From NCBI RefSeq assembly GCF_044324875.1, contig NZ_CP172185.1: a stretch of 64,000 nt of DNA. One strand, written 5' to 3'. Within the stretch, counting starts at the first letter, position 1; every line of letters starts with the position of its first letter. The notes under the pieces were generated by a model. The model ran no database searches. It saw nothing but the letters and a program-made list of their open reading frames with translations, and was not told the origin of the DNA. Positions 3,505 to 52,595 of this stretch are shown here, one piece after another. The stretch is from Escherichia coli. GTDB lineage: Bacteria; Pseudomonadota; Gammaproteobacteria; Enterobacterales; Enterobacteriaceae. Both the position numbers and the translations under genes were made by a program.

Positions 3505-4164
3505 TCAGGCGTTACAGTATTTTTTTTTAATCACCACAAACAGCGTGCCTAACAAGCCAGCGGTTAACAAGGCAATTGGCAGGATCATCAGGATCGTCAT
3601 TACCTGATCTTCATGGCGTTTAACGAACGGAATCATACTTAATGCATAGCCGAAACTGGTTACCACGCTGACCCACAGCAATCCACTTAACCAGTTGAAA
3701 AACTGGAAGCGGCGGTTTGGCAGACCGGAAATTCCCGCCATGGTTGGCAGCAACGTACGGACAAATGCAAGAAAACGTCCAGCCAGCAGCGCCAGCAGAC
3801 CGTGGCGGTCAAACATGCAGGTGGCGCGCTGGTGATATTTAGCGGGAAGCTGTGCCAGCCAGCCTTTCACCGTTTTGGTATTCCCTAACCAGCGCCCCTG
3901 AATATAACTTAACCAGCAGCCCAGACTTGCTGCGGCGGTCAGAATCGCAATCGTAGGCAGAAAATCCATAACCCCCTGGGCAATCAATGCGCCAGCCAAT
4001 ATCAACAAGCTGTCGCCTGGCAAAAATGAGGCGGGCAGCAGGCCGTTTTCTAAAAACAGCGTGGCAAACATGACAAAGTAAACAACGCTAACAATATGAG
4101 GATCCGCCAGCGCGGCAAAGTCGTGTTGCCAGAGCGCAGCGATGATATCTTGAATAACAGCCAT
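3505..4164 (-). CDS. yghB: DedA-family inner membrane protein
   Basis: 219-aa [26 protein letters not shown]..., multi-pass hydrophobic; matches YghB. Confidence 0.9.
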
Positions 4165-27217: not shown

Positions 27218-27777
27218 TGCCATCTCGTTGGATTTTCGCTCTGATCATCGCACTCTTAGCGCCAGGCGCGGTGGCACACAATTTCGTCACTGGCAAAACG
27301 GTTACCCCTGTTTATATCCAGGAAGGCGGTGAGTTGCTTCTGAAAAGCGACGACGAAATTCACTACCAAAAGTGGAACAGCACACAGCTGGCGGGAAAAG
27401 TTCGCATTATTCAGTATATCGCCGGGCGTAAGTCGGCGAAGAAAAAGAACTCACTGTTAATTAAAGCGGTTGAAGCGGCAAACTTTCCGCAGGATCGTTT
27501 TCAGCCCACCACCATTGTGAACACCGATGATGCCATTTTTGGTACTGGCTATTTTGTCGTTGGCAAAATCGAAAAAAATAAACGCCGCTATCCGTGGGCG
27601 CAATTCGTTATTGACGGCAATGGACAGGGACGCGTTGCCTGGCGGTTGCCGGAGCAGAGTTCAACCATTCTGGTGCTGAATAAAGACGGGCAAATTCAGT
27701 GGGCAAAGGACGGCAGCCTGACGCCGGAAGAGGTAGATCATGTCATTGCGCTGGCGCAGAAACTGATCAATGAATAA
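27217..27777 (+). CDS. secreted/periplasmic protein, YtfJ-like, 186 aa
   Basis: N-terminal signal peptide MPSRWIFALIIALLAPGAVA; start overlaps previous stop (TAATG); resemblance to YtfJ is from memory. Confidence 0.55.
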   Translation: MPSRWIFALIIALLAPGAVAHNFVTGKTVTPVYIQEGGELLLKSDDEIHYQKWNSTQLAGKVRIIQYIAGRKSAKKKNSLLIKAVEAANFPQDRFQPTTIVNTDDAIFGTGYFVVGKIEKNKRRYPWAQFVIDGNGQGRVAWRLPEQSSTILVLNKDGQIQWAKDGSLTPEEVDHVIALAQKLINE

Positions 27778-27807
27778 AAAATTCAAAGGATTGAGGGCGT
27801 TAGCGAG

Positions 27808-28878
27808 ATGAAGCTGGTTGAACACTACATCATGCGTGGTACGCGCCGTCTGGTGTTGATTATCGTCGGTTTTCTGATCTTTATTTTCGCCAGCTACTCC
27901 GCACAGCGTTATCTGACCGAAGCGGCAAATGGGACATTAGCTCTTGATGTTGTGCTGGATATCGTTTTCTACAAAGTGCTGATTGCACTGGAGATGTTGT
28001 TACCTGTTGGACTGTATGTGTCAGTTGGCGTGACGCTAGGGCAGATGTATACCGATTCGGAAATTACCGCTATCTCTGCGGCGGGGGGCAGTCCGGGACG
28101 CTTGTACAAAGCCGTTCTTTATCTGGCGATACCGCTAAGTATTTTTGTCACCCTTCTGTCGATGTATGGTCGTCCGTGGGCTTATGCGCAGATTTATCAA
28201 CTGGAGCAACAGTCACAGTCGGAGCTGGATGTTCGCCAGTTGCGGGCAAAGAAATTTAACACTAACGATAACGGACGAATGATCCTTTCCCAGACGGTTG
28301 ATCAGGATAATAATCGCCTGACTGACGCGCTGATTTATACTTCTACTGCCAATCGAACCCGCATTTTCCGCGCCCGTTCGGTTGATGTGGTTGACCCATC
28401 TCCCGAGAAACCGACCGTTATGTTGCACAACGGGACAGCCTATCTTCTCGATCATCAGGGGCGTGACGACAACGAACAGATCTACCGTCATCTGCAATTA
28501 CATCTGAATCCGCTGGATCAAAGCCCTAACGTCAAACGCAAAGCGAAATCGGTCACGGAGCTGGCGCGCTCCGTCTTTCCAGCCGATCATGCCGAACTGC
28601 AATGGCGACAAAGCCGTGGCCTGACAGCATTGTTGATGGCGCTGCTGGCCATTTCATTAAGTCGGGTAAAACCGCGGCAAGGGCGATTTTCAACATTATT
28701 GCCACTGACGTTGCTGTTTATTGCCATTTTTTATGGCGGCGACGTCTGCCGTACGCTGGTGGCTAACGGCGCGATTCCCCTCATTCCTGGTTTGTGGTTA
28801 GTACCCGGACTCATGCTAATGGGCCTGCTGATGCTGGTCGCACGCGACTTCTCTTTGCTGCAGAAATTTTCCCGATGA
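27808..28878 (+). CDS. YjgP/YjgQ-family permease (LptF-like paralogue)
   Basis: 356-aa ORF with N-terminal TM cluster, long periplasmic middle region and C-terminal TM helices, the LptF/LptG architecture. Confidence 0.7.
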   Translation: MKLVEHYIMRGTRRLVLIIVGFLIFIFASYSAQRYLTEAANGTLALDVVLDIVFYKVLIALEMLLPVGLYVSVGVTLGQMYTDSEITAISAAGGSPGRLYKAVLYLAIPLSIFVTLLSMYGRPWAYAQIYQLEQQSQSELDVRQLRAKKFNTNDNGRMILSQTVDQDNNRLTDALIYTSTANRTRIFRARSVDVVDPSPEKPTVMLHNGTAYLLDHQGRDDNEQIYRHLQLHLNPLDQSPNVKRKAKSVTELARSVFPADHAELQWRQSRGLTALLMALLAISLSRVKPRQGRFSTLLPLTLLFIAIFYGGDVCRTLVANGAIPLIPGLWLVPGLMLMGLLMLVARDFSLLQKFSR

Positions 28879-29954
28879 ATGTTTTCAGTCGCTATTTAAT
28901 CCGTCATCTCTTTCTCGGTTTTGCCGCCGCCGCAGGGCTATTGCTGCCGCTTTTTACCACCTTCAACCTGATTAACGAACTGGATGATGTCAGCCCGGGT
29001 GGTTATCGCTGGACTCAGGCGGTGCTGGTGGTGCTGATGACCTTACCGCGCACACTGGTCGAACTTTCGCCGTTTATCGCATTATTGGGAGGGATTGTTG
29101 GCCTGGGGCAGTTATCGAAAAACAGTGAGCTTACCGCCATTCGCAGCACGGGGTTTTCTATCTTCCGTATTGCACTAGTGGCGCTGGTTGCCGGGATATT
29201 TTGGACTGTTTCGTTAGGCGCGATAGATGAGTGGGTGGCGTCGCCATTGCAGCAACAGGCGCTGCAAATCAAATCGACTGCCACCGCGTTGGGGGAGGAC
29301 GATGACATTACCGGCAATATGCTTTGGGCCAGGCGCGGTAATGAATTTGTGACGGTGAAATCGCTGAACGAGCAGGGCCAGCCTGTGGGCGTGGAGATAT
29401 TTCATTATCGCGACGATCTCTCGCTCGAATCCTACATTTTTGCACGCAGTGCCTCCATTGAAGACGACAAAACGTGGATCCTGCATGGTGTGAATCATAA
29501 AAAATGGTTGAATGGCAAAGAAACGCTGGAAACATCAGATAATCTTGCCTGGCAATCGGCCTTCACCAGTATGAATCTTGAAGAGTTATCGATGCCGGGA
29601 AATACTTTTTCTGTCCGTCAACTTAATCATTACATCCATTATTTGCAGGAAACTGGGCAACCCAGCAGCGAATACCGCCTTGCACTGTGGGAAAAACTGG
29701 GACAACCCATCCTGACCCTGGCGATGATTTTGCTGGCTGTGCCGTTTACCTTTAGTGCCCCGCGTTCGCCTGGGATGGGTAGCCGTCTCGCTGTAGGCGT
29801 CATCGTGGGCTTACTTACCTGGATCAGCTATCAAATCATGGTCAATCTGGGATTGCTATTTGCGTTGAACGCACCTGTTACCGCGCTCGGTTTACCGGTA
29901 GCGTTTGTGCTGGTGGCGTTGAGCCTGGTGTATTGGTATGACAGACAACATTAA
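28875..29954 (+). CDS. YjgP/YjgQ-family permease (LptG-like paralogue)
   Basis: Track ORF 28794..29954 is over-extended; start MNVFSRYLIRHLFLGF overlaps the upstream stop (ATGA), giving 359 aa with LptG-like topology. Confidence 0.7.
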   Translation: MNVFSRYLIRHLFLGFAAAAGLLLPLFTTFNLINELDDVSPGGYRWTQAVLVVLMTLPRTLVELSPFIALLGGIVGLGQLSKNSELTAIRSTGFSIFRIALVALVAGIFWTVSLGAIDEWVASPLQQQALQIKSTATALGEDDDITGNMLWARRGNEFVTVKSLNEQGQPVGVEIFHYRDDLSLESYIFARSASIEDDKTWILHGVNHKKWLNGKETLETSDNLAWQSAFTSMNLEELSMPGNTFSVRQLNHYIHYLQETGQPSSEYRLALWEKLGQPILTLAMILLAVPFTFSAPRSPGMGSRLAVGVIVGLLTWISYQIMVNLGLLFALNAPVTALGLPVAFVLVALSLVYWYDRQH

Positions 29955-29988
29955 ACCCGCCGTGGCGCAACACCACAGCGGGCTCACA

Positions 29989-31161
29989 TTACTGCTTCAG
30001 AGTAGCGAACGCTTGAATGATGGCATCAATTTGCTCACGACTGTGGGCAGCGTTTACGCTACAGCGCAGCAGCGTGATGCCTGCAGGCGCGGCAGGTGGC
30101 AGGATAAGATTCACATAAACGCCCAGCGAAATAAGCTCGCGCCAGATGCGTAAACCTTCCTCTTTCGAACCGATTATTACTGGCACTACCGGGCTAATAT
30201 GTGAACTTAACTCATAACCCAGTTTTTGCAGACCGTCATACAGATGGTTGGCATTATCCATCAGCTTTTGCCGCAACTCTGGTTGTGTAGCAATGGTTCT
30301 TAACGACGAGCGCACGGTCGCAATGCAGGACGGAGAAGGAGAGGCGGTAAAAATATACGGGCGGCTGCCGTAGCGCAGCACTTCCATCGCTTCCGAACCG
30401 ACAGCAAAACCGCCAATCGAGGCCAGACTTTTACTGAAAGTACCAACGATAATATCCACATCATCTTCAACGCCAACGGCTTCAGCCAGTCCGCGCCCCG
30501 TTGCGCCTAACACGCCAAACGAATGCGCTTCATCGACAATCAAATAACCACCGAGACGACGTTTGATATCAACAATTTCCGCCAGCGGCGCAACGTCACC
30601 GAGCATACTGTAGATGCCTTCAACGATGATAATCGCCTCTTTTGCCCGTTCACCGAGGCGAACCATGCGCCGTTCCAGATCTTTAGCATCGTTATGGCGG
30701 AAACGAATAATTTCCGCGCCACCGAGAGAACAGGCGTCATAAATACTGGCGTGGCTGTCGGCATCCAGTAACACCACGGCGTTATGGTCGGCAAGTGCGC
30801 TGATGACGCCTAAATTAGCGGTATAACCGGTTGAAAAAACGATAGCGGTAGGGCGATTAAAAAACTCGGCGATCTCTTTCTCTAACGCCAGATGCGGCGC
30901 ATAACTGCCGTTTGCCATACGAGAACCGGTGGTGCCGGTGCCTTGGGCCGCTAACGCTGCCTGACCTTCGGCGATGGCATCATGATTGAAGGTTAATCCG
31001 AGATAATTATTGGTCCCGGCCAGAATCACTTTTTTATTGCCGATCCGGCCTTCGGTGGCGGAATACACTTCATCAATACAGGTACCAAACGGCGTTAACC
31101 CGTTGTCACTAAATTGCAGTCGCTCGCCAGCAAGACGCGCATATTTATCGTATAGCCCCAT
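29989..31161 (-). CDS. PLP-dependent alpha-oxoamine synthase, serine-palmitoyltransferase-like
   Basis: 390 aa; motifs DEAHSFG and VGTFSKSLASIGGF (PLP lysine about residue 244, codon near 30430..30432). Confidence 0.8.
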   Translation of the reverse strand: MGLYDKYARLAGERLQFSDNGLTPFGTCIDEVYSATEGRIGNKKVILAGTNNYLGLTFNHDAIAEGQAALAAQGTGTTGSRMANGSYAPHLALEKEIAEFFNRPTAIVFSTGYTANLGVISALADHNAVVLLDADSHASIYDACSLGGAEIIRFRHNDAKDLERRMVRLGERAKEAIIIVEGIYSMLGDVAPLAEIVDIKRRLGGYLIVDEAHSFGVLGATGRGLAEAVGVEDDVDIIVGTFSKSLASIGGFAVGSEAMEVLRYGSRPYIFTASPSPSCIATVRSSLRTIATQPELRQKLMDNANHLYDGLQKLGYELSSHISPVVPVIIGSKEEGLRIWRELISLGVYVNLILPPAAPAGITLLRCSVNAAHSREQIDAIIQAFATLKQ

Positions 31162-31409
31162 TATTTATTCTCCAGCCATGGAAGTAGTGTTTCCATTAAT
31201 TGCGCAGGGGTTTTGACATCCAGCAGAATATTAATAGGAATGGAAATATCGAATCTGTCTTCCAGCATCATTAAGAGATCCATCACTTTGATCGACTCCA
31301 GGCCAAGATCGTTGACGAGATCGCTGTCGGGCTTAATTTCCACACCGTTTTCGACCAAATCCTGTAAACAGGAAAGGATGTAATCCATTACTATTTCACG
31401 ATTTACCAT
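31161..31409 (-). CDS. acyl carrier protein (dedicated, 82 aa)
   Basis: Small acidic protein with DLGLESIKVMDL (candidate phosphopantetheine serine); stop overlaps the downstream synthase start. Confidence 0.7.
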   Translation of the reverse strand: MVNREIVMDYILSCLQDLVENGVEIKPDSDLVNDLGLESIKVMDLLMMLEDRFDISIPINILLDVKTPAQLMETLLPWLENK

Positions 31410-31440
31410 AGAAACGTTAACACACCTTTAAACAAGACAA

Positions 31441-32355
31441 TCAAAATAGCCCGTTGCGTAATGCGTGTTCCAGGCTAATCCCGGGAAACCAATTAATATC
31501 TTCAGAAATACGGTTATTACTTGCTGACCAGTCGGCGTGGGTTAATTCACGGATTTTCGAGCGGGTCAGCATAGGTTCTTTACCTGCCAGGCGACTCAAC
31601 GTGGTACTGATATCCGCAAGGCAGGTGAGTACCGACAGAGGAATACCAACCATTCGAACGGAACCACAACGGGCGTCGGCGGCAAGCTGTCTTACGCGTT
31701 GCCAGTCATAGCCGCCGGCGACGCCATCGCATAATTCATAGGTTTGCGTCTGTACAGTTTCGGCGCTTAACCACTGCCCCACGGCTTGCGCGAAATCGGT
31801 GACGTGCAGGAAAGAGAGCTGTGTATCTGGCGCACCAAGTCGTGGCAGTAGGCCGCGCAGCATCCAGTCAAACAGCGGTTTTAACTCTTTATCGCCGGGA
31901 CCATACACGGCTGTCGGGCGAAAAATGCCCAGCGTAATTTCGTCAGCCATTGCGGTCAGTCGTTGTTCGGCGACGTGTTTGGAATTTGCGTACCAGGAGA
32001 GTTCGGGATGGCGCGCCGCCAGCGAAGAGATAAACAGAAAACGTTGGCAAAAGCCGCTCTCTTTTGCCGCTTGCATCAGGCGCAGGCTGCCGTCAACGTT
32101 ACAGCGGGTAAAAATCTCTTCTTTGTGTCCGCGCACTTGTCCGGCGCAATGGACCACCGCGCTGGCTCCGGCAACCAGTTCGCTAAGCGAATGTGTATCT
32201 TCCAGCGAACCGCGCACCCAGATGAGATTATCATTGACGTGAGCGCGGGCAGTACGCGTCAATGCGCGAACGTGAAAGCCGCGGGCGAGCAGGTTATCGA
32301 TAATATATTTACCGATAAACCCGGTAGCGCCCGTCACCGCGACAGTTTGATTCAT
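31441..32355 (-). CDS. NAD(P)-dependent epimerase/dehydratase-family (extended SDR) oxidoreductase, putative keto-reductase
   Basis: 304 aa; Rossmann VTGATGFIGKYI, catalytic YANSK; start overlaps upstream ligase stop by 4 nt. Confidence 0.75.
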   Translation of the reverse strand: MNQTVAVTGATGFIGKYIIDNLLARGFHVRALTRTARAHVNDNLIWVRGSLEDTHSLSELVAGASAVVHCAGQVRGHKEEIFTRCNVDGSLRLMQAAKESGFCQRFLFISSLAARHPELSWYANSKHVAEQRLTAMADEITLGIFRPTAVYGPGDKELKPLFDWMLRGLLPRLGAPDTQLSFLHVTDFAQAVGQWLSAETVQTQTYELCDGVAGGYDWQRVRQLAADARCGSVRMVGIPLSVLTCLADISTTLSRLAGKEPMLTRSKIRELTHADWSASNNRISEDINWFPGISLEHALRNGLF

Positions 32356-34073
32356 GCCAGGGATTCCTGCACATGAAGGCTTGCAGCATAAGCCTTCTGA
32401 TAGCGTTTTTTCGCTTCCGCACGGGCAGGCTTGCCGGAGGACGTTCGGGGAATACTGTGGGGCGGCAACAGATCGATAGCCGCGGTCACGCCAAATTCGC
32501 TTTGGATCCGTGCTGCCAGCGCGTGGATAAGCTGCCCGCGACGTTCTTCATCGCTGATCCGACACTGGATCTGCAAAATGATTTTTTCCTGGGCGGTAAC
32601 AAAAGCAATCGCATCGCCAGAATGAATTTCCGGTTCCTGTTCCGCAATATATTCAATATCTTGCGGCCAGATATTGCGGCCACGAATAATAATCAGATCT
32701 TTAATGCGTCCGGTGACATACAGATAACCGTCCAGCAGATAACCGAGGTCGCCGGTGTCTAACCAGCCCGTCGCGGCAATCTCGTCTTGTGAAATCTGGT
32801 CGCCAAAGTAACCGCTCATCAGGCTAGGGCCGGAGATGCAAATATGGCCTACCACACGTTCCGCGACAGGTATACCTGCTTCATTGCGGATTTCAATGCC
32901 ATGTTCCGGCAACGCTTTACCGCAGTTGACGAAAGTCGATACGGCGCGTGTTTCAGCATCCGGCGCGACGGCTTTGCCCTGATATTCGAGGATGTCGCGA
33001 TCCACTTCGTTAACCACAACCCCGGAAGCTTCATCAGAGAAGCTGACAGCCAGCGCATTTTCTGCCAGTCCGTAGCACGGCATGAACGTTTTATCGTCAA
33101 AGTTAACCTGACGAAAACATTCAGCGAATTGATGGAGTTGTTCTGCGGAGATCGGTTCTGCGCCAATACCAGCGACGCGCCAGCAGGAAAGATCCAGTTC
33201 AGCGAGATCTTTTTCATTCACGCGGCGCTGGCACAATTCATAGCCAAACGGCGGCGCAACGGAAACGGTGCCGCGATTTTTACTGATCAATTTAAGCCAT
33301 TGCAGAGGACGCATGGCAAAATCCTGAGTGCGCAAATAATCTACTGAGAGCTGCGTGGCGACGGGGGTCAGGAGAAAGCCGACCAGTCCCATATCATGGT
33401 AGAAAGGCAGCCAGGAGACGCAGCGGTCGCCAGGGCGTAATTTAATGCCATCGTGGCTTATAGCACGTAGATTAGCCATCACTTCGCGATGGGTGATAAT
33501 GACGCCACGGGGAAAACGGGTGCTGCCGGAGGTGTACTGGAGGTAGGCGATATCGTTCGGAACTGGACGCTGGAGTGCAACATCGGCTTCCGGTAATGCC
33601 TTAAACCAGGCGTGGCTTAAAACATGTAATTCGGGTTTGTTATGCGTCGCGGCATTGACCAGCGGTAACCACTCATCACCAGTGATAATGGCTGCGGGCT
33701 GGCAACTTGCCAGTAAACCCTGCAGTTTGGCGCTCCAGGAATCCCGCTGACCGACGCCCATTGGAATCGCCAACGGGACGGCGACTAAGCCGGCATACTG
33801 GCAGGAAAAAAAAGCCTCTACGAACCCGCTACTGGTTTCGGCAATCAGCGCCACGCGATCGCCTTTTTTCAGGTTCAGCGATAACAACCGCTTCGCACCA
33901 GCTTCGGCACGCGCTTTTAACGTCTGATATTCCAGTTGATCTTCAAGTTGGCAACGTCTGTCATAAAAATTCATTCCGGCGCTACTCAGAGCGGCGTAGT
34001 CCAAAGCATCAACCAGCGTTGGAAAATCGGCATAGCGCATAGGTAGGGAATGCGTAAAGATTTTATTAGACAT
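32352..34073 (-). CDS. fatty acyl-AMP ligase / acyl-ACP synthetase-type adenylating enzyme
   Basis: Track ORF 32352..34100 (582 aa); AMP-binding motif YTSGSTRFPRGV. Start uncertain (candidates at 34100, 34073, 34040); 34073 ATG chosen. Confidence 0.75.
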   Translation of the reverse strand: MSNKIFTHSLPMRYADFPTLVDALDYAALSSAGMNFYDRRCQLEDQLEYQTLKARAEAGAKRLLSLNLKKGDRVALIAETSSGFVEAFFSCQYAGLVAVPLAIPMGVGQRDSWSAKLQGLLASCQPAAIITGDEWLPLVNAATHNKPELHVLSHAWFKALPEADVALQRPVPNDIAYLQYTSGSTRFPRGVIITHREVMANLRAISHDGIKLRPGDRCVSWLPFYHDMGLVGFLLTPVATQLSVDYLRTQDFAMRPLQWLKLISKNRGTVSVAPPFGYELCQRRVNEKDLAELDLSCWRVAGIGAEPISAEQLHQFAECFRQVNFDDKTFMPCYGLAENALAVSFSDEASGVVVNEVDRDILEYQGKAVAPDAETRAVSTFVNCGKALPEHGIEIRNEAGIPVAERVVGHICISGPSLMSGYFGDQISQDEIAATGWLDTGDLGYLLDGYLYVTGRIKDLIIIRGRNIWPQDIEYIAEQEPEIHSGDAIAFVTAQEKIILQIQCRISDEERRGQLIHALAARIQSEFGVTAAIDLLPPHSIPRTSSGKPARAEAKKRYQKAYAASLHVQESLA

Positions 34074-34444
34074 ATACACCACGAAAAAATTGGATATCAA
34101 AAATAAAATGACAATAATGCGGTGGATTATATAGGCATAAAAGATAAATGAGATAGTATTTTCATCAGTGTGAAAATGAACATTGATTTAAATAATGAGT
34201 TTGAGTTTTTTTGTTTTTATTGTGAATGATATTTAATTTATGAATGTATTAAGAAGAAGCCTTGTCCGGTCGCCTTAAATCGACAAAAGGCATTGTGGCG
34301 CTTCTGTGTAGTCTCTGACCTTATCGTAATCATTAATAAATACTATTTATTCGTCGTTTGTATTCATTGGGTTGATTATTAAGGTGCCGTTCGTTGCTGT
34401 TGCAACCTGTTTGTCACCGTTAATTATTTGTTACCCACAGAACT
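34074..34444. promoter_or_regulatory. AT-rich divergent control region between the ligase operon and yghO
   Basis: About 370 bp non-coding and strongly AT-rich, between divergently oriented starts. Confidence 0.45.
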
Positions 34445-45593: not shown

Positions 45594-48500
45594 ATGAATA
45601 AGAAATTTAAATATAAGAAATCGCTTTTAGCGGCTATTTTGAGCGCAACCCTGTTAGCCGGTTGTGATGGCGGTGGTTCCGGATCTTCCTCCGATACGCC
45701 GCCTGTAGATTCTGGAACAGGGTCTTTGCCGGAAGTGAAACCTGATCCAACACCAAACCCGGAGCCGACGCCTGAGCCAACGCCGGACCCAGAACCTACG
45801 CCGGAACCGATACCTGATCCTGAGCCAACACCAGAACCGGAGCCAGAACCTGTTCCTACGAAAACGGGTTATCTGACCCTGGGCGGAAGCCAGCGGGTAA
45901 CTGGTGCTACCTGTAATGGTGAATCCAGCGATGGCTTTACATTTACACCTGGTGAGGACGTTACTTGCGTGGCGGGTAACACGACAATTGCCACCTTCAA
46001 CACTCAGTCAGAAGCTGCGCGTAGCCTGCGTGCGGTTGAAAAAGTGTCGTTTAGTCTTGAGGACGCGCAAGAACTGGCGGCTTCCGACAATAAGAAAAGC
46101 AATGCGGTTTCGCTGGTAACGTCCAGTAACAGCTGTCCGGCGGATACAGAACAGGTTTGCCTGACGTTCTCCTCTGTGATCGAGAGTAAACGTTTCGACT
46201 CGCTGTATAAGCAAATCGATCTGGCACCGGAAGAGTTCAAAAAGCTGGTCAATGAAGAGGTGGAAAACAATGCCGCGACCGATAAAGCGCCATCCACTCA
46301 TACTTCACCGGTCGTGCCTGTCACCACGCCGGGAACAAAACCGGATCTGAACGCCTCCTTCGTGTCGGCTAACGCGGAACAGTTTTATCAGTATCAACCT
46401 ACGGAAATCATTCTCTCCGAAGGCCGACTGGTAGATAGCCAGGGATATGGTGTTGCTGGCGTCAACTACTACACCAATTCAGGCCGTGGCGTGACAGGGG
46501 AAAATGGTGAATTTTCCTTTAGCTGGGGCGAAACCATCTCCTTTGGTATCGATACCTTTGAACTGGGTTCAGTGCGCGGCAATAAGTCGACCATTGCGCT
46601 GACTGAACTGGGTGATGAAGTTCGCGGGGCGAATATTGATCAGCTTATTCATCGCTATTCGACGACCGGGCAAAATAATACCCGTGTTGTTCCGGACGAT
46701 GTACGCAAGGTCTTTGCCGAATATCCCAACGTGATCAACGAGATTATCAATCTCTCGTTATCCAACGGTGCGACGCTGGATGAAGGTGAGCAAGTTGTTA
46801 ATCTGCCAAACGAATTTATTGAGCAGTTTAAGACGGGTCAAGCCAAAGAGATCGATACCGCGATTTGTGCGAAAACCGACGGTTGTAACGAGGCTCGCTG
46901 GTTCTCGCTGACGACGCGCAATGTTAATGACGGCCAGATTCAGGGCGTTATTAACAAGCTGTGGGGTGTGGATACAAGTTACAAATCTGTCAGCAAGTTC
47001 CATGTATTCCATGACTCTACCAACTTCTATGGCAGCACCGGTAATGCGCGCGGTCAGGCGGTGGTGAATATCTCCAACGCGGCATTCCCGATTCTGATGG
47101 CGCGTAATGATAAAAACTACTGGCTGGCCTTCGGCGAAAAACGCGCCTGGGATAAAAATGAGCTGGCGTACATTACGGAAGCGCCTTCCATTGTGCGCCC
47201 GGAAAACGTGACTCGCGAAACTGCCACCTTCAACCTGCCGTTTATCTCGCTGGGGCAAGTCGGCAAAGGTAAGCTGATGGTTATCGGTAACCCGCACTAC
47301 AACAGCATTCTGCGCTGTCCGAACGGTTACAGCTGGGAAGGCGGTGTTGATAAAAACGGTCAGTGTACGCGTAACAGTGATTCTAATGATATGAAGCACT
47401 TTATGCAGAACGTGTTGCGCTATCTGTCCAACGATAAATGGACGCCGGACGCGAAAGCCAGCATGACCGTAGGCACCAACCTGGATACTGTCTATTTCAA
47501 ACGTCATGGTCAGGTTACAGGAAACAGTGCTGAGTTCGGCTTCCATCCGGATTTTGCGGGTATCTCCGTTGAGCATTTAAGTAGCTATGGCGATCTCGAT
47601 CCGCAGAAAATGCCGCTGCTGATCCTTAACGGCTTTGAGTATGTGACTCAGGTGGGGGGCGATCCCTATGCAGTGCCTCTGCGTGCAGATACCAGCAAAC
47701 CGAAGCTGACCCAGCAGGATGTGACCGATTTGATCGCCTATATGAACAAAGGTGGCTCGGTGCTGATCATGGAAAACGTGATGAGCAATCTTAAGGAAGA
47801 GAGCGCGTCTGGCTTTGTGCGTCTGCTGGATGCCGCAGGCCTGTCAATGGCACTGAACAAGTCGGTGGTGAATAACGATCCGCAGGGTTATCCAGACCGC
47901 GTGCGCCAGCGTCGAGCGACTGGCATTTGGGTTTATGAACGTTATCCGGTTGTGGAGGGTGAGCTGCCGTACACCATTGATTCCAAAACAGGAAAAGTTA
48001 CCTGGAAATATCAGATTGATAACAAGCCTGATAAGAAACCGAAACTGGAAGTAGCCAGCTGGCAAGAAGAGGTTGATGGTAAACAGGTAACTCAATTCGC
48101 CTTTATCGATGAAGCCGACCACAAAACGACTGAATCTCTGGATGCTGCGAAGAAGAAAATTCTGGAAAAATTCAAGGGATTAGAGGAGTGTAAGTACTCG
48201 ACATATCACTACGAAATCAACTGCCTGGAATACCGTCCTGGCACGAACGTTCCGGTTACTGGTGGCATGTATGTTCCGCGCTATACGCAACTGAATCTCA
48301 GCGCCGACACTGCAAAAGCGATGGTGCAGGCGGCGGATTTAGGCACCAACATTCAGCGTCTGTATCAGCATGAGCTCTACTTCCGGACCAATGGTCGCAA
48401 AGGTGAGCGTCTGAGCAGCGTCGATCTGGAACGTCTGTACCAGAACATGTCGGTCTGGCTGTGGAATGAAATTGAATACAGCTATGACAGCAGCAAGGAA

Positions 48501-50156
48501 GACGAGCTGGGCTTTAAAACGTTCACCGAGTTCCTGAACTGCTACGCCAACGATGCCTATACTGGCGGCACGCAGTGTTCTGATGAGCTGAAAAAATCGC
48601 TGGTCGATAACAACATGATCTACGGCGAGAAGAGCGTTAATAAAGCGGGCATGATGAACCCCAGCTATCCGCTCAACTATATGGAAAAACCGCTGACGCG
48701 CCTGATGCTGGGTCGTTCCTGGTGGGATCTGAACATCAAAGTTGATGTCGAGAAGTATCCGGGAGCGGTATCGGCAGAAGGTGAGAAGGTTACTGAAACC
48801 ATCAGCCTGTACTCGAATCCGACCAAATGGTTTGCGGGTAACATGCAGTCTACTGGCCTATGGGCTCCGGCTCAGAAAGAGGTCACCATTGAGTCTTCTG
48901 CATCAGTTCCTGTGACTGTCACCGTGGCGCTGGCCGACGATCTGACCGGACGCGAGAAGCATGAAGTCGCGCTGAACCGTCCGCCAAAAGTGACGAAAAC
49001 CTATGATCTGAAAGCCAATGATAAGGTGACCTTCAAGGTGCCTTACGGTGGTCTGATTTATATCAAGGGCAACAGCCCAAAGAATGAGTCAGCCGAATTC
49101 ACCTTTACTGGTGTGGTAAAAGCGCCGTTCTATAAAGACGGCGAATGGAAAAACGCTCTGAACTCCCCTGCGCCGCTGGGCGAGCTGGAATCAGACGCTT
49201 TCGTTTATACCACGCCGAAGAAGAACCTTGAGGCCAGCAATTTCACTGGTGGTGTAGCAGAATTCGCTAAAGATCTGGATACCTTTGCCAGCTCGATGAA
49301 TGACTTCTACGGTCGTAATGATGAAGACGGTAAGCACCGGATGTTTACCTATAAAAACTTGACGGGGCACAAGCATCGTTTCACCAACGATGTGCAGATC
49401 TCCATCGGTGATGCGCACTCTGGTTATCCGGTAATGAACAGCAGCTTCTCGACGAACAGCACCACGCTGCCGACGACGCCGCTGAACGACTGGCTGATCT
49501 GGCACGAAGTTGGTCACAACGCCGCCGAAACGCCGCTGACTGTTCCTGGCGCAACTGAAGTAGCGAACAACGTGCTGGCGCTGTACATGCAGGATCGCTA
49601 TCTCGGCAAGATGAACCGTGTCGCTGACGACATTACCGTCGCGCCGGAATATCTGGAGGAGAGCAACGGTCAGGCATGGGCGCGCGGCGGTGCGGGTGAC
49701 CGTCTGCTGATGTACGCACAGCTGAAAGAGTGGGCAGAGAAAAACTTTGATATCAAGACGTGGTATCCAGATGGCAATCTGCCAGCGTTCTACAGCGAGC
49801 GTGAAGGGATGAAAGGCTGGAACCTGTTCCAGTTGATGCATCGTAAAGCACGCGGCGATGAGGTTGGCAAAACCAAGTTTGGCGAAAGAAATTACTGTGC
49901 CGAATCCAACGGTAACGCTGCCGACACGCTGATGCTGTGTGCATCCTGGGTCGCCCAGACGGATCTTTCGGAGTTCTTTAAGAAATGGAATCCAGGTGCG
50001 AATGCTTACCAGCTGCCGGGGGCGAGCGAGATGAGCTTCGAGGGCGGTGTGAGCCAGTCGGCGTACAACACGCTGGCGTCACTCAAGCTGCCGAAACCGG
50101 AACAGGGACCGGAAACCATTAACAAGGTTACCGAGCATAAGATGTCTGTCGAGTAA
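45594..50156 (+). CDS. sslE: SslE/YghJ secreted lipoprotein, M60-like zinc metalloprotease (mucinase), substrate of T2SS-beta
   Basis: About 1520 aa from MNKKFKYKKSLLAAILSATLLAGC (lipobox LLAGC); Pro/Glu/Thr-rich linker; HEVGH zinc-binding motif at about 49503..49517. Confidence 0.9.
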   Translation: MNKKFKYKKSLLAAILSATLLAGCDGGGSGSSSDTPPVDSGTGSLPEVKPDPTPNPEPTPEPTPDPEPTPEPIPDPEPTPEPEPEPVPTKTGYLTLGGSQRVTGATCNGESSDGFTFTPGEDVTCVAGNTTIATFNTQSEAARSLRAVEKVSFSLEDAQELAASDNKKSNAVSLVTSSNSCPADTEQVCLTFSSVIESKRFDSLYKQIDLAPEEFKKLVNEEVENNAATDKAPSTHTSPVVPVTTPGTKPDLNASFVSANAEQFYQYQPTEIILSEGRLVDSQGYGVAGVNYYTNSGRGVTGENGEFSFSWGETISFGIDTFELGSVRGNKSTIALTELGDEVRGANIDQLIHRYSTTGQNNTRVVPDDVRKVFAEYPNVINEIINLSLSNGATLDEGEQVVNLPNEFIEQFKTGQAKEIDTAICAKTDGCNEARWFSLTTRNVNDGQIQGVINKLWGVDTSYKSVSKFHVFHDSTNFYGSTGNARGQAVVNISNAAFPILMARNDKNYWLAFGEKRAWDKNELAYITEAPSIVRPENVTRETATFNLPFISLGQVGKGKLMVIGNPHYNSILRCPNGYSWEGGVDKNGQCTRNSDSNDMKHFMQNVLRYLSNDKWTPDAKASMTVGTNLDTVYFKRHGQVTGNSAEFGFHPDFAGISVEHLSSYGDLDPQKMPLLILNGFEYVTQVGGDPYAVPLRADTSKPKLTQQDVTDLIAYMNKGGSVLIMENVMSNLKEESASGFVRLLDAAGLSMALNKSVVNNDPQGYPDRVRQRRATGIWVYERYPVVEGELPYTIDSKTGKVTWKYQIDNKPDKKPKLEVASWQEEVDGKQVTQFAFIDEADHKTTESLDAAKKKILEKFKGLEECKYSTYHYEINCLEYRPGTNVPVTGGMYVPRYTQLNLSADTAKAMVQAADLGTNIQRLYQHELYFRTNGRKGERLSSVDLERLYQNMSVWLWNEIEYSYDSSKEDELGFKTFTEFLNCYANDAYTGGTQCSDELKKSLVDNNMIYGEKSVNKAGMMNPSYPLNYMEKPLTRLMLGRSWWDLNIKVDVEKYPGAVSAEGEKVTETISLYSNPTKWFAGNMQSTGLWAPAQKEVTIESSASVPVTVTVALADDLTGREKHEVALNRPPKVTKTYDLKANDKVTFKVPYGGLIYIKGNSPKNESAEFTFTGVVKAPFYKDGEWKNALNSPAPLGELESDAFVYTTPKKNLEASNFTGGVAEFAKDLDTFASSMNDFYGRNDEDGKHRMFTYKNLTGHKHRFTNDVQISIGDAHSGYPVMNSSFSTNSTTLPTTPLNDWLIWHEVGHNAAETPLTVPGATEVANNVLALYMQDRYLGKMNRVADDITVAPEYLEESNGQAWARGGAGDRLLMYAQLKEWAEKNFDIKTWYPDGNLPAFYSEREGMKGWNLFQLMHRKARGDEVGKTKFGERNYCAESNGNAADTLMLCASWVAQTDLSEFFKKWNPGANAYQLPGASEMSFEGGVSQSAYNTLASLKLPKPEQGPETINKVTEHKMSVE

Positions 50157-50303: not shown

Positions 50304-51113
50304 ATGCTTTTTGATGTTTTTCAGCAATACCCCGCGGCGATGCCCGTCCTGGCTACCGTCGGAGGATTGATTATCGGCAGTTTTTTGAATGTGGTGATTT
50401 GGCGTTACCCCATCATGCTGCGCCAACAAATGGCGGAGTTTCACGGTGAAATGCCGAGTACGCAGTCAAAAATAAGCCTGGCGCTGCCACGCTCGCACTG
50501 TCCGCATTGCCAGCAGACTATCCGCGTTCGTGACAATATTCCGCTGCTCTCCTGGCTGATGCTCAAAGGGCGCTGCCGCGACTGTCAGGCGAAAATCAGC
50601 AAGCGTTATCCGCTGGTGGAGTTATTGACGGCACTCGCTTTTTTGCTGGCGAGTCTGGTGTGGCCAGAAAGTGGATGGGGGCTGGCGGTGATGATATTAT
50701 CCGCCTGGCTGATTGCCGCGAGCATCATTGACCTCGATAACCAATGGCTGCCCGATGTTTTTACTCAGGGCGTATTGTGGACCGGGCTGATTGCGGCATG
50801 GGCGCAGCAGAGTCCGTTAACGCTACAAGACGCAGTTACCGGCGTACTGGTGGGATTTATCACTTTTTACTCCCTGCGCTGGATAGCCGGAATAGTTCTG
50901 CGTAAAGAAGCATTAGGCATGGGCGATGTATTACTCTTCGCCGCTTTAGGTGGCTGGGTGGGGGCGTTATCACTGCCCAATGTTGCTTTAATCGCCTCAT
51001 GCTGCGGCCTGATATATGCCGTTATTACAAAAAGAGGATCAACCCCGCTGCCTTTTGGACCGTGTTTAAGTCTGGGCGGTATAGCAACACTTTATCTACA
51101 GGCATTGTTTTAA
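50304..51113 (+). CDS. pppA: prepilin peptidase (GspO-type) of the T2SS-beta
   Basis: 269-aa ORF; Cys-rich CPHC...CRDC zinc-binding motif typical of type IV prepilin peptidases. Confidence 0.9.
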
Positions 51114-51178
51114 TGATAACCACGTCATTATCGAAGTGACATTTTTACTCTTATTAATAACCTTAGAGATTATTTACC

Positions 51179-51589
51179 ATGTCGATAAAACAAATGCCAG
51201 GGAGGGTATTAATATCGCTATTGTTGAGCGTTACAGGATTATTAAGTGGCTGTGCCAGCCATAATGAAAATGCCAGTTTACTGGCGAAAAAACAGGCGCA
51301 AAATATCAGCCAAAACCTGCCGATTAAATCTGCGGGATATACCTTAGTGCTGGCGCAAAGTAGCGGCACGACGGTAAAAATGACCATTATCAGCGAAGCG
51401 GGTGCTCAGACCACGCAGACGCCTGATGCCTTTTTAACCAGCTATCAACGACAAATGTGCGCTGACCCGACGGTGAAATTAATGATTACCGAGGGAATTA
51501 ATTACAGCATAACGATTAATGATACACGTACAGGTAACCAGTATCAGCAGAAACTGGATCGTACCACCTGTGGAATAGTCAAAGCATAA
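51179..51589 (+). CDS. yghG: small outer-membrane lipoprotein, T2SS-beta pilotin-like
   Basis: 136-aa ORF with lipoprotein signal and lipobox LLSGC. Confidence 0.85.
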   Translation: MSIKQMPGRVLISLLLSVTGLLSGCASHNENASLLAKKQAQNISQNLPIKSAGYTLVLAQSSGTTVKMTIISEAGAQTTQTPDAFLTSYQRQMCADPTVKLMITEGINYSITINDTRTGNQYQQKLDRTTCGIVKA

Positions 51590-51606
51590 CGTCGGGTAGA
51601 TATAAA

Positions 51607-52566
51607 TTGGCGCGGGTTGTTTTTCGTGACGCACGAATTTATCTCATTCAATGGCTGACAAAAATTCGTCACACTCTTAACCAGAGACAATCTCTTAATA
51701 CAGACAAAGAGCATCTGCGAAAAATTGTACGCGCGATGTTCTGGCTGATGCTGCTTATTATTTCTGCAAAAGTGGCGCATTCACTCTGGCGCTATTTCTC
51801 CTTTTCTGCGGAATATACGGCGGTTTCCCCATCGGCGAATAAACCGCCCCGTGCAGATGCAAAAACGTTCGATAAAAATGACGTGCAATTAATCAGCCAG
51901 CAAAACTGGTTTGGCAAATATCAGCCTGTCGCCGTGCCGGTAAAACAACCTGAACCTGCGCCTGTGGCAGAAACACGTCTTAATGTGGTGCTGCGCGGGA
52001 TCGCCTTTGGTACCAGACCTGGCGCGGTTATTGAAGAAGGCGGCAAACAGCAGGTCTATTTGCAGGGGGAACGGCTTGGTTCTCACAACGCGGTGATTGA
52101 GGAAATCAACCGCGACCATGTGATGCTGCGCTATCAGGGAAAAATAGAGCGCCTGAGCCTGGCTGAAGAGGAGCGTTCCACCGTAGCCGTGACCAACAAA
52201 AAAGCTGTCAGTGACAAAGCAAAGCAAGCTGTTGCTGAGCCTGCTGCCAGTGCGCCAGTTGAGATCCCGACTGCTGTGCGTCAGGCACTGGCGAAAGATT
52301 CGCAGAAAATTTTTAACTATATCCAGCTTACGCCTGTGCGTAAGGAGGGGATTGTCGGTTATGCAGTGAAGCCGGGGGCAGATCGTTCTCTGTTCGATGC
52401 CAGCGGTTTCAAGGAAGGCGATATCGCCATTGCGCTAAATCAGCAGGATTTCACTGATCCACGAGCAATGATTGCTCTGATGCGGCAGTTACCTTCAATG
52501 GATTCCATTCAACTTACGGTTTTACGCAAGGGTGCGCGCCACGACATTTCCATCGCGCTGCGCTAA
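51607..52566 (+). CDS. gspC: GspC-like T2SS inner-membrane component (PDZ-containing), intact here
   Basis: 319-aa ORF (TTG as printed; start uncertain) with one N-terminal TM segment and Pro-rich periplasmic linker; corresponds to yghF. Confidence 0.75.
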   Translation: MARVVFRDARIYLIQWLTKIRHTLNQRQSLNTDKEHLRKIVRAMFWLMLLIISAKVAHSLWRYFSFSAEYTAVSPSANKPPRADAKTFDKNDVQLISQQNWFGKYQPVAVPVKQPEPAPVAETRLNVVLRGIAFGTRPGAVIEEGGKQQVYLQGERLGSHNAVIEEINRDHVMLRYQGKIERLSLAEEERSTVAVTNKKAVSDKAKQAVAEPAASAPVEIPTAVRQALAKDSQKIFNYIQLTPVRKEGIVGYAVKPGADRSLFDASGFKEGDIAIALNQQDFTDPRAMIALMRQLPSMDSIQLTVLRKGARHDISIALR

Positions 52567-52595
52567 CCGCATTTAATCCAGGAGAATCATTCATC

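What the first reader, a model, noticed from the sequence alone, without database searches (positions are those of the whole stretch)
45741..45860. Degenerate PEPTP tandem repeats in the SslE N-terminal linker
Translation reads PDPTPNPEPTPEPTPDPEPTPEPIPDPEPTPEPEPEPVP; the DNA is a run of near-identical 12-18 nt units. Such repeats are prone to slippage and could vary in length between strains, changing linker length of a surface-exposed protease.
Basis: seen in the sequence. Interest (0 to 1): 0.3.

Follow-up and report, generated by a model that had tools for sequence, protein, structure and literature searches.

The report
Proline-rich tether of SslE lipoprotein
This is the known proline-rich, unstructured spacer that links the lipid anchor of the E. 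coli mucin-degrading protease SslE to its first folded domain; its length varies a little between strains, which is ordinary for such spacers.

Summary
Window 45741-45857 encodes residues 50-88 of SslE, a strict X-Pro alternation of 20 dipeptides counting K49. No other run in the window's six reading frames exceeds 4.

The DNA description is overstated. Units of 12 or 18 nt are only about 58% identical, the longest exact repeat is 11 nt, and no two adjacent hexamers are identical.

The tract makes up the distal two thirds of a 65-residue tether between lipidated Cys24 and the first globular domain. The literature already calls this region an unstructured flexible linker.

Length does vary among about 4,090 complete E. 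coli genomes that carry the gene, but narrowly:
- 39 aa in about 81% of sampled records
- 37 aa in about 14%
- 35 aa in about 2%
- 41 aa in under 5% (1 of 169 sampled rows; allele searches suggest more)
- 43, 21, 19 and 13 aa are rare

All changes are multiples of 6 nt. Four large deletions lie exactly between 8-10 nt direct repeats. Frequent length change is seen only in allele families that evolved perfect tandem hexamers, which the window allele lacks.

Distant SslE/AcfD homologues keep a Pro-rich acidic tether but not its sequence. The feature is already known and of low interest.

The parts
45594..50156 (+). sslE (yghJ) coding sequence, 1520 aa plus stop. It encodes a lipoprotein M60-like zinc metalloprotease (mucinase).
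   Evidence: ORF and translation. NCBIfam metallo_SslE scores 3490 bits over residues 1-1520. Pfam finds DUF4092, M60-like_N and Peptidase_M60. The HEVGH motif is visible. The first 507 nt are 100% identical to annotated sslE of strains 118UI and noe1104.
45594..45665 (+). Signal peptide with lipobox LAGC. Cys24 (codon 45663-45665) is the residue predicted to be lipidated.
   Evidence: The sequence MNKKFKYKKSLLAAILSATLLAGC is read directly. C24 is invariant in the family alignment A1. The lipoprotein nature is stated in PMC8881592.
45666..45740 (+). Proximal 25 residues of the tether (D25-K49), rich in Gly, Ser, Thr and Asp: DGGGSGSSSDTPPVDSGTGSLPEVK. Asp is at position +2 after the lipidated Cys.
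   Evidence: Translation. AlphaFold2 pLDDT is 42-50 with no secondary structure. The segment is nearly invariant among the E. coli alleles fetched.
45741..45857 (+). The X-Pro tract, residues P50-P88 (39 aa; 19 CCN-NNN hexamers plus a final CCT). X is D/E (11), T (5), N, I or V. This is the finding itself.
   Evidence: There is no DSSP element, and pLDDT rises from 50 to 81 along the tract. Pro codons are CCT 7, CCA 7, CCG 6, which is depleted in CCG relative to the rest of the gene (p=0.015).
45813..45830 (+). Hot spot for single-unit changes: hexamers CCTGAT-CCTGAG-CCAACA.
- The 37-aa alleles lack CCAACA.
- The 41-aa and 43-aa alleles of the F11/N24 type carry 2 or 3 copies of CCTGAT.
- The TC24/TW11681 family has replaced this stretch with (CCAGAT)m(CCAGAG)n.
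   Evidence: Codon alignment and allele sequences. Isolates N17 and N24 differ by one CCTGAT unit and one SNP over 24 kb.
45771..45782 (+). The 12-nt unit CCTGAGCCAACG (PEPT), lost in the 35-aa alleles of NY1601 and ATCC 8739. It lies within the period-12 array reported by Tandem Repeats Finder (45762-45784).
   Evidence: This allele is found at >=99% identity in 40 records.
45759..45844 (+). Pair of 8-nt direct repeats CCGGAGCC (45759-45766 and 45837-45844), 78 nt apart. A 78-nt in-frame deletion joins them in a Logan assembly allele, leaving a 13-aa tract.
   Evidence: Repeat list and the L014 sequence. In that contig sslE is also truncated next to an IS66 transposase.
45789..45851 (+). Pair of 9-nt direct repeats CCAGAACCT (45789-45797 and 45843-45851), 54 nt apart. 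A 54-nt deletion between the equivalent repeats gives the 21-aa tract of strain UPEC957C, whose gene is annotated intact.
45747..45833 (+). Pair of 9-nt direct repeats CCAACACCA (45747-45755 and 45825-45833), 78 nt apart. A deletion between them gives the 13-aa tract of strain 1919D3, whose sslE is annotated as a pseudogene.
45861..46289 (+). First globular domain (NT1 of the literature), starting at K90 with a beta-strand.
   Evidence: AlphaFold2 gives pLDDT 88-96 from residue 90, with strands E90-96 and following. PMC8881592 defines NT1 as mature residues 67-211. Family homology starts here.
50304..62068 (+). Downstream type II secretion system beta operon (pppA, gspS-beta, gspC to gspM), which exports SslE. 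Included as context only.
   Evidence: ORFs. Annotation of the 98%-identical region in strain 118UI. Secretion dependence is reported in PMC3707838 (listed) and in the 2026 preprint.

Best explanation
The tract encodes a 39-residue acidic X-Pro segment. It forms the distal two thirds of the 65-residue non-globular tether between the lipidated Cys24 and the first folded domain of SslE.

**Shown**
- It lies in frame in sslE.
- It has no predicted secondary structure.
- Every SslE/AcfD homologue examined has a Pro-rich, acidic, nearly Lys/Arg-free segment of 28-65 residues at the same place, but with unrelated sequence.

**Inferred**
- Alternating X-Pro cannot form helices or sheets and tends to an extended polyproline-II-like chain. 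At about 0.3 nm per residue, that is up to about 12 nm.
- The segment would therefore act as a semi-rigid, negatively charged spacer. [quoted passage not shown]
- Composition and approximate length matter. Exact sequence does not.

**How the length changes**
At the DNA level the 6-nt periodicity allows occasional in-frame gain or loss of hexamer units by replication slippage. Rarely, larger deletions occur between 8-10-nt direct repeats. In the window's allele this is infrequent because no perfect tandem copies exist.
For: **Identity and position**
-.
- The literature describes 'an unstructured ~5 kDa region' and 'L: flexible linker' after the lipobox, and removes it from recombinant constructs (PMC8881592).

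**Structure prediction**
- AlphaFold2 gives no DSSP element before residue 90. pLDDT is 42-81 across residues 1-89 and above 88 in NT1.

**Family comparison**
- Eleven full or partial homologues at 32-86% identity have tethers of 28-65 aa.
- These tethers contain 18-36% Pro, 12-25% Asp+Glu and 0-7% Lys+Arg.
- Strict X-Pro alternation (17-20 units) occurs only in the two Escherichia-type sequences.

**Tolerance of change**
- Thr is replaced by Ile at residue 73 in the window and K-12, and by Glu/Asp in the TC24 family.
- Lengths of 19-43 aa occur in genes annotated as intact.

**Slippage signature**
- All indels are multiples of 6 nt.
- Four large deletions map exactly to short direct repeats.
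- A family with perfect (CCAGAG)n shows five length classes in 51 records.
- Near-clonal isolates N17 and N24 differ by one CCTGAT unit.

**General principle**
- For long disordered N-terminal linkers of E. coli lipoproteins, length and disorder matter and sequence does not (preprint 10.1101/2021.01.05.425367).
Against: - No experiment has tested the SslE linker. I found no paper on its length or function.
- The dominance of exactly 39 aa in about 81% of records could reflect shared ancestry rather than selection on length.
- Alleles with 19 or 21 aa in apparently intact genes suggest that half the tract is dispensable, at least in those backgrounds.
- AlphaFold2 confidence of 78-81 for residues 71-89 hints that the distal end may pack against NT1 rather than being free.
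- The polyproline-II geometry and the roughly 12 nm reach are inferred from general knowledge. They were not computed from a model.
Confidence: 0.8

Rival explanations
1. Contingency or VNTR locus. The tract would be a slippage-prone repeat whose frequent length changes tune or diversify the reach or antigenicity of the surface protease.
For: - Length polymorphism exists, with eight length classes.
- Independent events recur at the same hexamers in different allele backgrounds.
- The (CCAGAT)m(CCAGAG)n family shows 35, 37, 39, 41 and 43 aa within 51 records.
- N17 and N24 differ by one unit with only 1 SNP in 24 kb.
Against: - The window allele has no perfect tandem unit and its longest exact repeat is 11 nt.
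- About 81% of sampled records share 39 aa.
- Sets of related isolates from the same study keep one length.
- All changes are in frame, so no on/off switching is possible.
- The range of the common alleles is only +/-4 residues in a 65-residue tether, which is unlikely to change reach much.
- Several members of the variable family carry truncated sslE annotated as pseudogenes, so relaxed constraint is an alternative.
Confidence: 0.12
2. O-glycosylation or mucin-mimic module. The Thr residues in P-T-P context would be glycosylated, as YghJ is reported to be hyperglycosylated, giving a mucin-like stalk that resists proteolysis or shapes antigenicity.
For: - ETEC YghJ carries 54 mapped O-linked Ser/Thr sites (PMC8417355).
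- The tract has Thr at positions 53, 59, 63, 69 and 79.
- The tract is invisible to that study. There is no usable tryptic site between Cys24 and Lys90, because K49 is followed by Pro. The first mapped peptide starts at residue 91.
Against: - The Thr positions are not conserved. Residue 73 is Ile here and in K-12 but Thr in most alleles. The TC24 family replaces the distal Thr with Glu/Asp, and the 37-aa alleles lose a P-T unit.
- Distant homologues have few Thr or Ser in the Pro-rich part.
- No site in the tract has been demonstrated.
Confidence: 0.05
3. Lol-trafficking linker. The tract would be the long disordered N-terminal linker that outer-membrane lipoproteins need for efficient extraction and transfer by the Lol system.
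For: - About half of E. coli outer-membrane lipoproteins have such linkers of more than 22 residues. For these, length and disorder are required and sequence is not.
- Even the shortest SslE alleles (13-21 aa tract plus the 25 proximal residues) stay above 22 residues.
Against: - SslE has Asp at +2 after the lipidated Cys. By the established '+2 rule' for E. coli, and by analogy with pullulanase PulA, this is an inner-membrane retention (Lol-avoidance) signal. This rests on my own knowledge and was not tested here.
- SslE reaches the surface through the T2SS-beta encoded next to it.
- SslE is not mentioned in the linker paper's main text.
Confidence: 0.03

Closest known systems
The 'flexible linker / unstructured ~5 kDa region' of SslE itself (Corsini et al. 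2022, PMC8881592)
   Same: It is the same gene, position and segment. It lies after the signal sequence and lipobox and before domain NT1, and it is described as disordered and left out of recombinant protein.
   Different: The paper does not discuss the X-Pro periodicity, the DNA repeat structure or length differences between strains. Those details are added here.
Long intrinsically disordered N-terminal linkers of E. coli outer-membrane lipoproteins (RcsF, NlpD, Pal; El Rayes et al. preprint 10.1101/2021.01.05.425367)
   Same: Both start right after the lipidated Cys, exceed 22 residues and lack secondary structure. In both, the sequence is replaceable while length matters.
   Different: Those linkers serve Lol-dependent sorting. 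SslE has Asp at +2 and is exported by a type II secretion system, so the same role is doubtful. SslE's linker is much longer (65 aa) and strictly periodic.
Proline-rich spacer of TonB, (Glu-Pro)n-(Lys-Pro)n
   Same: Both are alternating X-Pro dipeptides forming an extended, non-globular spacer in an envelope protein. One TonB-annotated protein was pulled in by the tract (P0052).
   Different: TonB has an acidic half followed by a basic half and spans the periplasm. The SslE tract is only acidic or neutral and follows a lipid anchor. This is a compositional resemblance with no homology (from my own knowledge of TonB).
Trypanosome procyclin EP repeats (Pfam PF05887 Trypan_PARP)
   Same: Both are acidic Glu/Asp-Pro dipeptide repeats forming an extended stalk on a membrane-anchored surface protein. 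Pfam reports a weak match at residues 40-88.
   Different: The score is 31 bits against a cut-off of 100, so this is a composition-driven match and not membership. The organism and anchor type are unrelated.
In-frame coding tandem repeats (VNTRs) of bacterial surface proteins
   Same: Length changes come in whole units and preserve the frame. Perfect hexamer arrays in some sslE alleles vary between close relatives.
   Different: The window allele lacks perfect tandem copies. The units are only 6 nt, the range is small, and there is no evidence of phase or antigenic switching.

Membership tests
SslE (NCBIfam NF037973 metallo_SslE; SslE/AcfD lipoprotein zinc metalloproteases) | Full-length match to the curated model above its cut-off | tested here: met
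   The score is 3490 bits against a cut-off of 3000, covering residues 1-1520. SslE_AcfD_Zn_LP scores 1973 bits against 800.
SslE (NCBIfam NF037973 metallo_SslE; SslE/AcfD lipoprotein zinc metalloproteases) | Lipoprotein signal peptide with lipobox Cys | tested here: met
   The sequence LLAGC is present with Cys24. The Cys is invariant in the 13-sequence family alignment.
SslE (NCBIfam NF037973 metallo_SslE; SslE/AcfD lipoprotein zinc metalloproteases) | C-terminal M60-like peptidase domain with HExxH motif | tested here: met
   Pfam Peptidase_M60 has E=8e-38 at residues 1173-1465, with M60-like_N also found. HEVGH is present in the translation.
SslE (NCBIfam NF037973 metallo_SslE; SslE/AcfD lipoprotein zinc metalloproteases) | Genetic linkage to the T2SS-beta operon (pppA, gspS-beta, gspC-M) | tested here: met
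   ORFs follow directly downstream. They are annotated in the 98%-identical region of strain 118UI.
Long disordered N-terminal lipoprotein linker (El Rayes et al.) | Unstructured segment of more than 22 residues between the lipidated Cys and the first secondary-structure element of a globular domain | tested here: met
   The tether is 65 residues (25-89). AlphaFold2 shows no DSSP element before strand 90-96 and pLDDT of 42-81.
Long disordered N-terminal lipoprotein linker (El Rayes et al.) | The linker is required for optimal Lol-dependent outer-membrane targeting | not testable with these tools
   This needs fractionation of linker-deletion variants. Asp at +2 argues that SslE avoids Lol; that rests on my own knowledge of the +2 rule.
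Slippage-prone tandem repeat / contingency locus | Head-to-tail DNA copies that are identical or nearly so | tested here: not met
   For the window allele:
- There are 0 identical adjacent hexamers.
- 12-nt and 18-nt units are 58-59% identical.
- The longest exact repeat is 11 nt.
- Tandem Repeats Finder finds only about 2 copies at 78-90% matches.

The feature is met in other alleles: TW11681 has (CCAGAG)5 and N24 has (CCTGAT)3.
Slippage-prone tandem repeat / contingency locus | Copy number differs between strains | tested here: met
   Tracts of 13, 19, 21, 35, 37, 39, 41 and 43 aa were found. However, 39 aa accounts for about 81% of 169 sampled rows.
Slippage-prone tandem repeat / contingency locus | Copy number changes within clones (a high rate) | tested here: inconclusive
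   There is one case. N17 and N24 differ by 1 SNP and one CCTGAT unit over 24 kb, in an allele with a perfect duplicate. Sets of related isolates are uniform. No rate could be estimated.
Slippage-prone tandem repeat / contingency locus | Length changes switch expression on and off (frameshift) | tested here: not met
   All indels seen are multiples of 6 nt. The only frameshifted versions are singleton Logan assemblies (P0024, P0031).
Pfam PF05887 Trypan_PARP (procyclin EP repeat) | Score at or above the Pfam gathering threshold | tested here: not met
   The score is 31 bits against a cut-off of 100, at residues 40-88. This is a compositional match only.

The most novel reading that the evidence does not exclude
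Linker length could be an adaptive, heritable 'reach' setting. Lineages would adjust the number of X-Pro units to match the thickness of their O-antigen or capsule layer, or to alter the balance between surface retention and release of the mucinase. Some allele families would have evolved perfect hexamer arrays, (CCAGAG)n or (CCTGAT)n, that make this adjustment fast. Optionally, the Thr residues could carry O-glycans that the published tryptic mass-spectrometry map could not see.
Probability: 0.06. Interest if true: 0.4.

Novelty: already known. Interest (0 to 1): 0.12.

Why it matters
It matters little.

SslE is a vaccine candidate and a model T2SS lipoprotein substrate. It is mildly useful to know three things:
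- Its N-terminal tether is a composition-conserved, sequence-free spacer.
- About four fifths of sslE-positive strains share exactly the same 39-residue tract.
- Natural alleles down to 19-21 residues exist in apparently intact genes. These are ready-made variants for testing whether tether length affects surface display.

The contrast between the stable interrupted repeat, as in this window, and the variable perfect-hexamer alleles is a tidy textbook illustration. It shows that slippage depends on repeat purity at the DNA level, not on peptide periodicity.

Tried and rejected
1. **Selection against DNA repetitiveness (codon scrambling).** Rejected. Synonymous permutation gives the same longest repeat (11 against a mean of 11.2) and the same count of repeated 9-mers (5 against 5.0). 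Even gene-wide codon usage gives only a mean of 12.9. The only signal is modest CCG depletion among Pro codons (p=0.015).

2. **Homology to procyclin or ClfB repeat families.** Rejected as compositional. Both matches are far below their cut-offs.

3. **Assembly collapse.** Rejected on sequence grounds. The tract is 117 nt and has no exact repeat above 11 nt. The Logan 13-aa allele has a clean junction at an 8-nt repeat, and a second, independent 13-aa allele occurs in a complete genome.

4. **Full census of about 4,090 genomes.** Not possible, because the search tool lists at most 60 rows. I used four systematic 'spread' samples (169 rows, some records repeated) together with allele-specific counts at >=99% identity. 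Only net length is inferred for rows that were not fetched.

5. **Protein database search with residues 1-300.** It returned mostly truncated fragments and unrelated Pro-rich proteins. It was useful only for P0009, P0035 and P0056.

6. **Literature searches for a functional study of the linker, or for the paper behind PDB 23px.** Nothing was found.

7. **Glycosylation of the tract.** The published site map cannot see residues 25-90, so this remains untested.
Full report
**The observation**

Window 45741-45860 lies in frame inside a 1520-codon ORF (45594-50156, + strand). The ORF is SslE/YghJ:
- NCBIfam metallo_SslE scores 3490 bits against a cut-off of 3000 over the whole length.
- Pfam finds DUF4092, M60-like_N and Peptidase_M60.
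- The translation contains HEVGH.
- The first 507 nt are 100% identical to annotated sslE of strains 118UI and noe1104.

Residues P50-P88 alternate strictly between Pro and D/E/T/N/I/V. Counting K49, this makes 20 X-Pro dipeptides. The next longest X-Pro run in any of the six frames of the 64-kb window has 4 units, so the periodicity is real.

The DNA description is not confirmed:
- Tandem Repeats Finder reports only a period-30 array (2.1 copies, 78% matches) and a period-12 array (1.9 copies).
- In-register 12-nt and 18-nt units are on average 58-59% identical, with maxima of 75-78%.
- The longest exact direct repeat is 11 nt.
- No two neighbouring hexamers are identical.

The periodicity is 6 nt and follows from CCN at every second codon. 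Self-match is 54-69% at lags that are multiples of 6, against 14-26% at odd multiples of 3.

**Is the DNA unusually scrambled or unusually repetitive?**

It is neither. I shuffled synonymous codons among identical residues 2000 times. This gave the same longest repeat (mean 11.2, observed 11) and the same number of repeated 9-mers (5.0, observed 5). Sampling codons from the rest of the gene gave a mean longest repeat of 12.9, and the observed value falls inside that distribution.

Pro codons in the tract are CCT 7, CCA 7 and CCG 6. The rest of the gene uses CCG for 42 of 65 Pro codons (p=0.015). This is a modest bias and I do not interpret it further.

**What it is**

The protein begins with a signal peptide and the lipobox LAGC, with Cys24. 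The tether that follows has two parts:
- 25 residues rich in Gly, Ser, Thr and Asp (D25-K49)
- the 39-residue X-Pro tract, then Thr89

The first domain starts at K90.

An AlphaFold2 model of residues 1-232, built on a 13-sequence family alignment, has no secondary-structure element before strand 90-96. pLDDT by blocks of ten residues is 42, 48, 45, 47, 50, 57, 64, 78, 81, then 88-96 in the domain.

The literature already describes this segment. SslE has 'an unstructured ~5 kDa region' after the lipobox, drawn as 'L: flexible linker', and the recombinant protein used for structural work starts after it (PMC8881592). A full-length 1520-residue chain is deposited in the PDB (23px, 23py, 23pz). 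I could not see which residues are modelled in it.

**Context**

The gene follows glcCDEFGBA and precedes pppA, gspS-beta and gspC-M, the T2SS-beta operon that exports SslE. Over the compared region the window is about 98% identical to strain 118UI.

**Variation among strains**

A 200-nt query around the tract matches 4,088 of 5,426 complete E. coli genomes. The tool lists at most 60 rows per search. I therefore inferred net tract length from the span of each match in four evenly spaced ('spread') samples, using four different alleles as query. I also fetched representatives of each length class to see the sequence (read).

| Tract length | Rows out of 169 informative | Share |
|---|---|---|
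| 39 aa | 137 | 81% |
| 37 aa | 24 | 14% |
| 35 aa | 4 | 2% |
| 41 aa | 1 | <1% |
| Large deletions | 3 | see note |

The three large deletions are each the last, weakest row of a list, so they are over-represented.

Allele-specific counts agree with the sample:
- The main 37-aa allele (M7424, D10, BL21(DE3)) is found at >=99% identity in 487 of 4,072 records.
- The 35-aa allele (NY1601, ATCC 8739) is found in 40 records.
- The 41-aa allele of strain F11 is found in 32 records at >=99%. In addition, 28 of the 30 best-ranked rows have the 41-aa span.

The strains K-12, ST131 5392, SM107, STEC299 and TC24 all have 39 aa. So does ETEC H10407, judging from the residue numbering of its published peptide map, in which TGYLTLGG starts at 91.

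**How lengths change**

Every indel seen is a multiple of 6 nt, so the X-Pro register and the reading frame are kept.

| Allele (aa) | Strains | Change relative to the window |
|---|---|---|
| 37 | M7424, D10, BL21(DE3) | lacks hexamer CCAACA (window 45825-45830) |
| 35 | NY1601, ATCC 8739 | lacks the 12-nt unit CCTGAGCCAACG (45771-45782), inside the period-12 array from Tandem Repeats Finder |
| 41 / 43 | F11 / N24 | has 2 / 3 copies of CCTGAT (window 45813-45818) |

These changes are shown.

Four large in-frame deletions each join a pair of short direct repeats. Three of those pairs head the repeat list computed from the window itself.

| Deletion | Direct repeat (window positions) | Strain | Tract left | Gene status |
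|---|---|---|---|---|
| 54 nt | CCAGAACCT 9-mers (45789/45843) | UPEC957C | 21 aa | annotated intact |
| 78 nt | CCAACACCA 9-mers (45747/45825) | 1919D3 | 13 aa | pseudogene |
| 78 nt | CCGGAGCC 8-mers (45759/45837) | Logan assembly | 13 aa | truncated next to IS66 |
| 60 nt | GAGCCGACAC repeats of its own allele type | BEN2908 | 19 aa | annotated intact |

**Repeat purity predicts instability**

One allele family (TC24, TW11681, OkiPb017xx, Res13, 08-00022, EC09) has replaced the distal part of the tract with perfect hexamers, (CCAGAT)m(CCAGAG)n. Among the 51 best matches to this family I count the following:

| Tract length | Records |
|---|---|
| 35 aa | 8 |
| 37 aa | 11 |
| 39 aa | 23 |
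| 41 aa | 8 |
| 43 aa | 1 |

Several of these records are repeated isolates from one study. Several carry sslE annotated as incomplete, so relaxed constraint may contribute.

In the F11-type family, which has a perfect CCTGAT duplicate, the two cerebrospinal-fluid isolates N17 and N24 differ over 24 kb by one SNP and one extra CCTGAT.

By contrast, the roughly 4,000 records with interrupted hexamers, like the window, fall almost entirely into two classes: 39 and 37 aa. The window's allele is therefore of the stable kind.

**Beyond E. coli**

I searched 1.84 billion representative proteins with residues 90-600 and found full-length and partial homologues at 31-86% identity. Eleven of these, at 32-86% identity, were measured. 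In all of them the segment between the lipobox Cys and the first domain has these properties:
- 28-65 residues long
- 18-36% Pro
- 12-25% Asp+Glu
- 0-7% Lys+Arg

The sequences are unrelated to each other, for example IEIPPDIPPP repeats, PPxE motifs and PELP motifs. Strict X-Pro alternation (17-20 units) is limited to the Escherichia-type proteins.

An unrelated hypothetical lipoprotein, P0056, has the same design: Cys-GGGSGS followed by (PEPTPD)n.

Position, composition and approximate length are conserved, while sequence is free. This is the signature of a spacer rather than of a binding or catalytic element.

**Mechanism**

Shown:
- The tract is a non-globular, acidic, Pro-rich segment between the lipid anchor and the first domain.
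- It tolerates substitutions and unit gain or loss.

Inferred from general knowledge:
- Alternating X-Pro cannot form helix or sheet and favours an extended polyproline-II-like chain, at about 0.3 nm per residue and up to about 12 nm.
- The tract would therefore act as a semi-rigid stand-off that keeps the large mucinase clear of the membrane and LPS and keeps the anchor-proximal region unfolded.

The general rule for long lipoprotein linkers fits this reading: length and disorder matter, sequence does not. The Lol-dependent role proposed there probably does not apply. SslE has Asp at +2, a Lol-avoidance signal by the classical +2 rule (my own knowledge), and it uses the T2SS.

**Rivals**

See the membership table.
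- *Glycosylated, mucin-like stalk.* It cannot be excluded, because the published O-glycosite map starts at residue 91. There is no usable tryptic site between Cys24 and Lys90. However, the Thr positions are not conserved among alleles.
- *Specific binding motif.* It is unlikely given the lack of sequence conservation in the family.

**Verdict**

The feature is real, correctly located and already described as the flexible linker of SslE. The new detail is small. It consists of the distribution of lengths, the direct-repeat origin of the rare large deletions, and the contrast between interrupted and perfect hexamer alleles.

Novelty: already known. Interest: 0.12.

Noticed in passing
window about 27000-34100: Upstream of yghO and the glc operon lies a gene cluster. 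In the near-identical strain 118UI it is annotated as a YtfJ-family protein, LptF and LptG paralogues, serine palmitoyltransferase (spt), acyl carrier protein, an epimerase and a fatty acyl-AMP ligase. In 118UI the lptG paralogue and the ligase are pseudogenes. In the window the corresponding ORFs (28794-29954 + and 32352-34100 -) look intact.
   Followed up: partly
window 45594-46100 compared with E. coli complete genomes: The sslE 5' region is found in only 4,088-4,091 of 5,426 complete genomes, so about a quarter of the genomes lack it. Five matching places are on plasmids.
   Followed up: no
window about 45912 (between codons 106 and 107 of sslE): A one-codon indel with neighbouring substitutions in the first domain (TG-ATCNGE against TGDITCNDE) separates major allele groups. 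Together with further differences downstream, it explains most of the length differences in the first 507 nt, and these have nothing to do with the proline tract.
   Followed up: partly
L009 (strain VTB96935v) 1-90; L014 3346-4458: Insertion sequences hit sslE in some strains. An IS1A transposase gene ends at the 5' end of sslE in VTB96935v, where the annotated start is shifted. An IS66 transposase follows a truncated 485-aa sslE in a Logan assembly.
   Followed up: no
P0056 (JGI metagenome protein, 366 aa), residues 19-75: An unrelated hypothetical lipoprotein has almost the same tether design: Cys-GGGSGSDSK followed by (PEPTPD)n. This suggests the arrangement recurs among lipoproteins.
   Followed up: no
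L024 and L025 (strains N17 and N24), locus position 12093: Two cerebrospinal-fluid isolates are identical over 24 kb except for one SNP in glcE and one extra CCTGAT unit in the sslE tract (41 against 43 aa). This looks like a very recent slippage event.
   Followed up: yes
P0024 and P0031 (Logan assemblies): These are singleton predicted proteins in which the proline tract is read in another frame (QHQTRSRRLSQRRTQ...) before returning to the SslE frame. They are probably sequencing or assembly errors rather than real frameshift alleles.
   Followed up: no
NZ_CP070902.1 (strain 99COLEC), 789647-789799: The feature annotated under the sslE tract match is 'type II secretion system pilot lipoprotein GspS-beta'. 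This suggests a mis-annotation or a rearrangement in that genome.
   Followed up: no
window 45804-45860 (residues 71-89): AlphaFold2 confidence rises to 78-81 in the last 19 residues of the tether although no secondary structure is assigned. The distal end may lie against the first domain.
   Followed up: no
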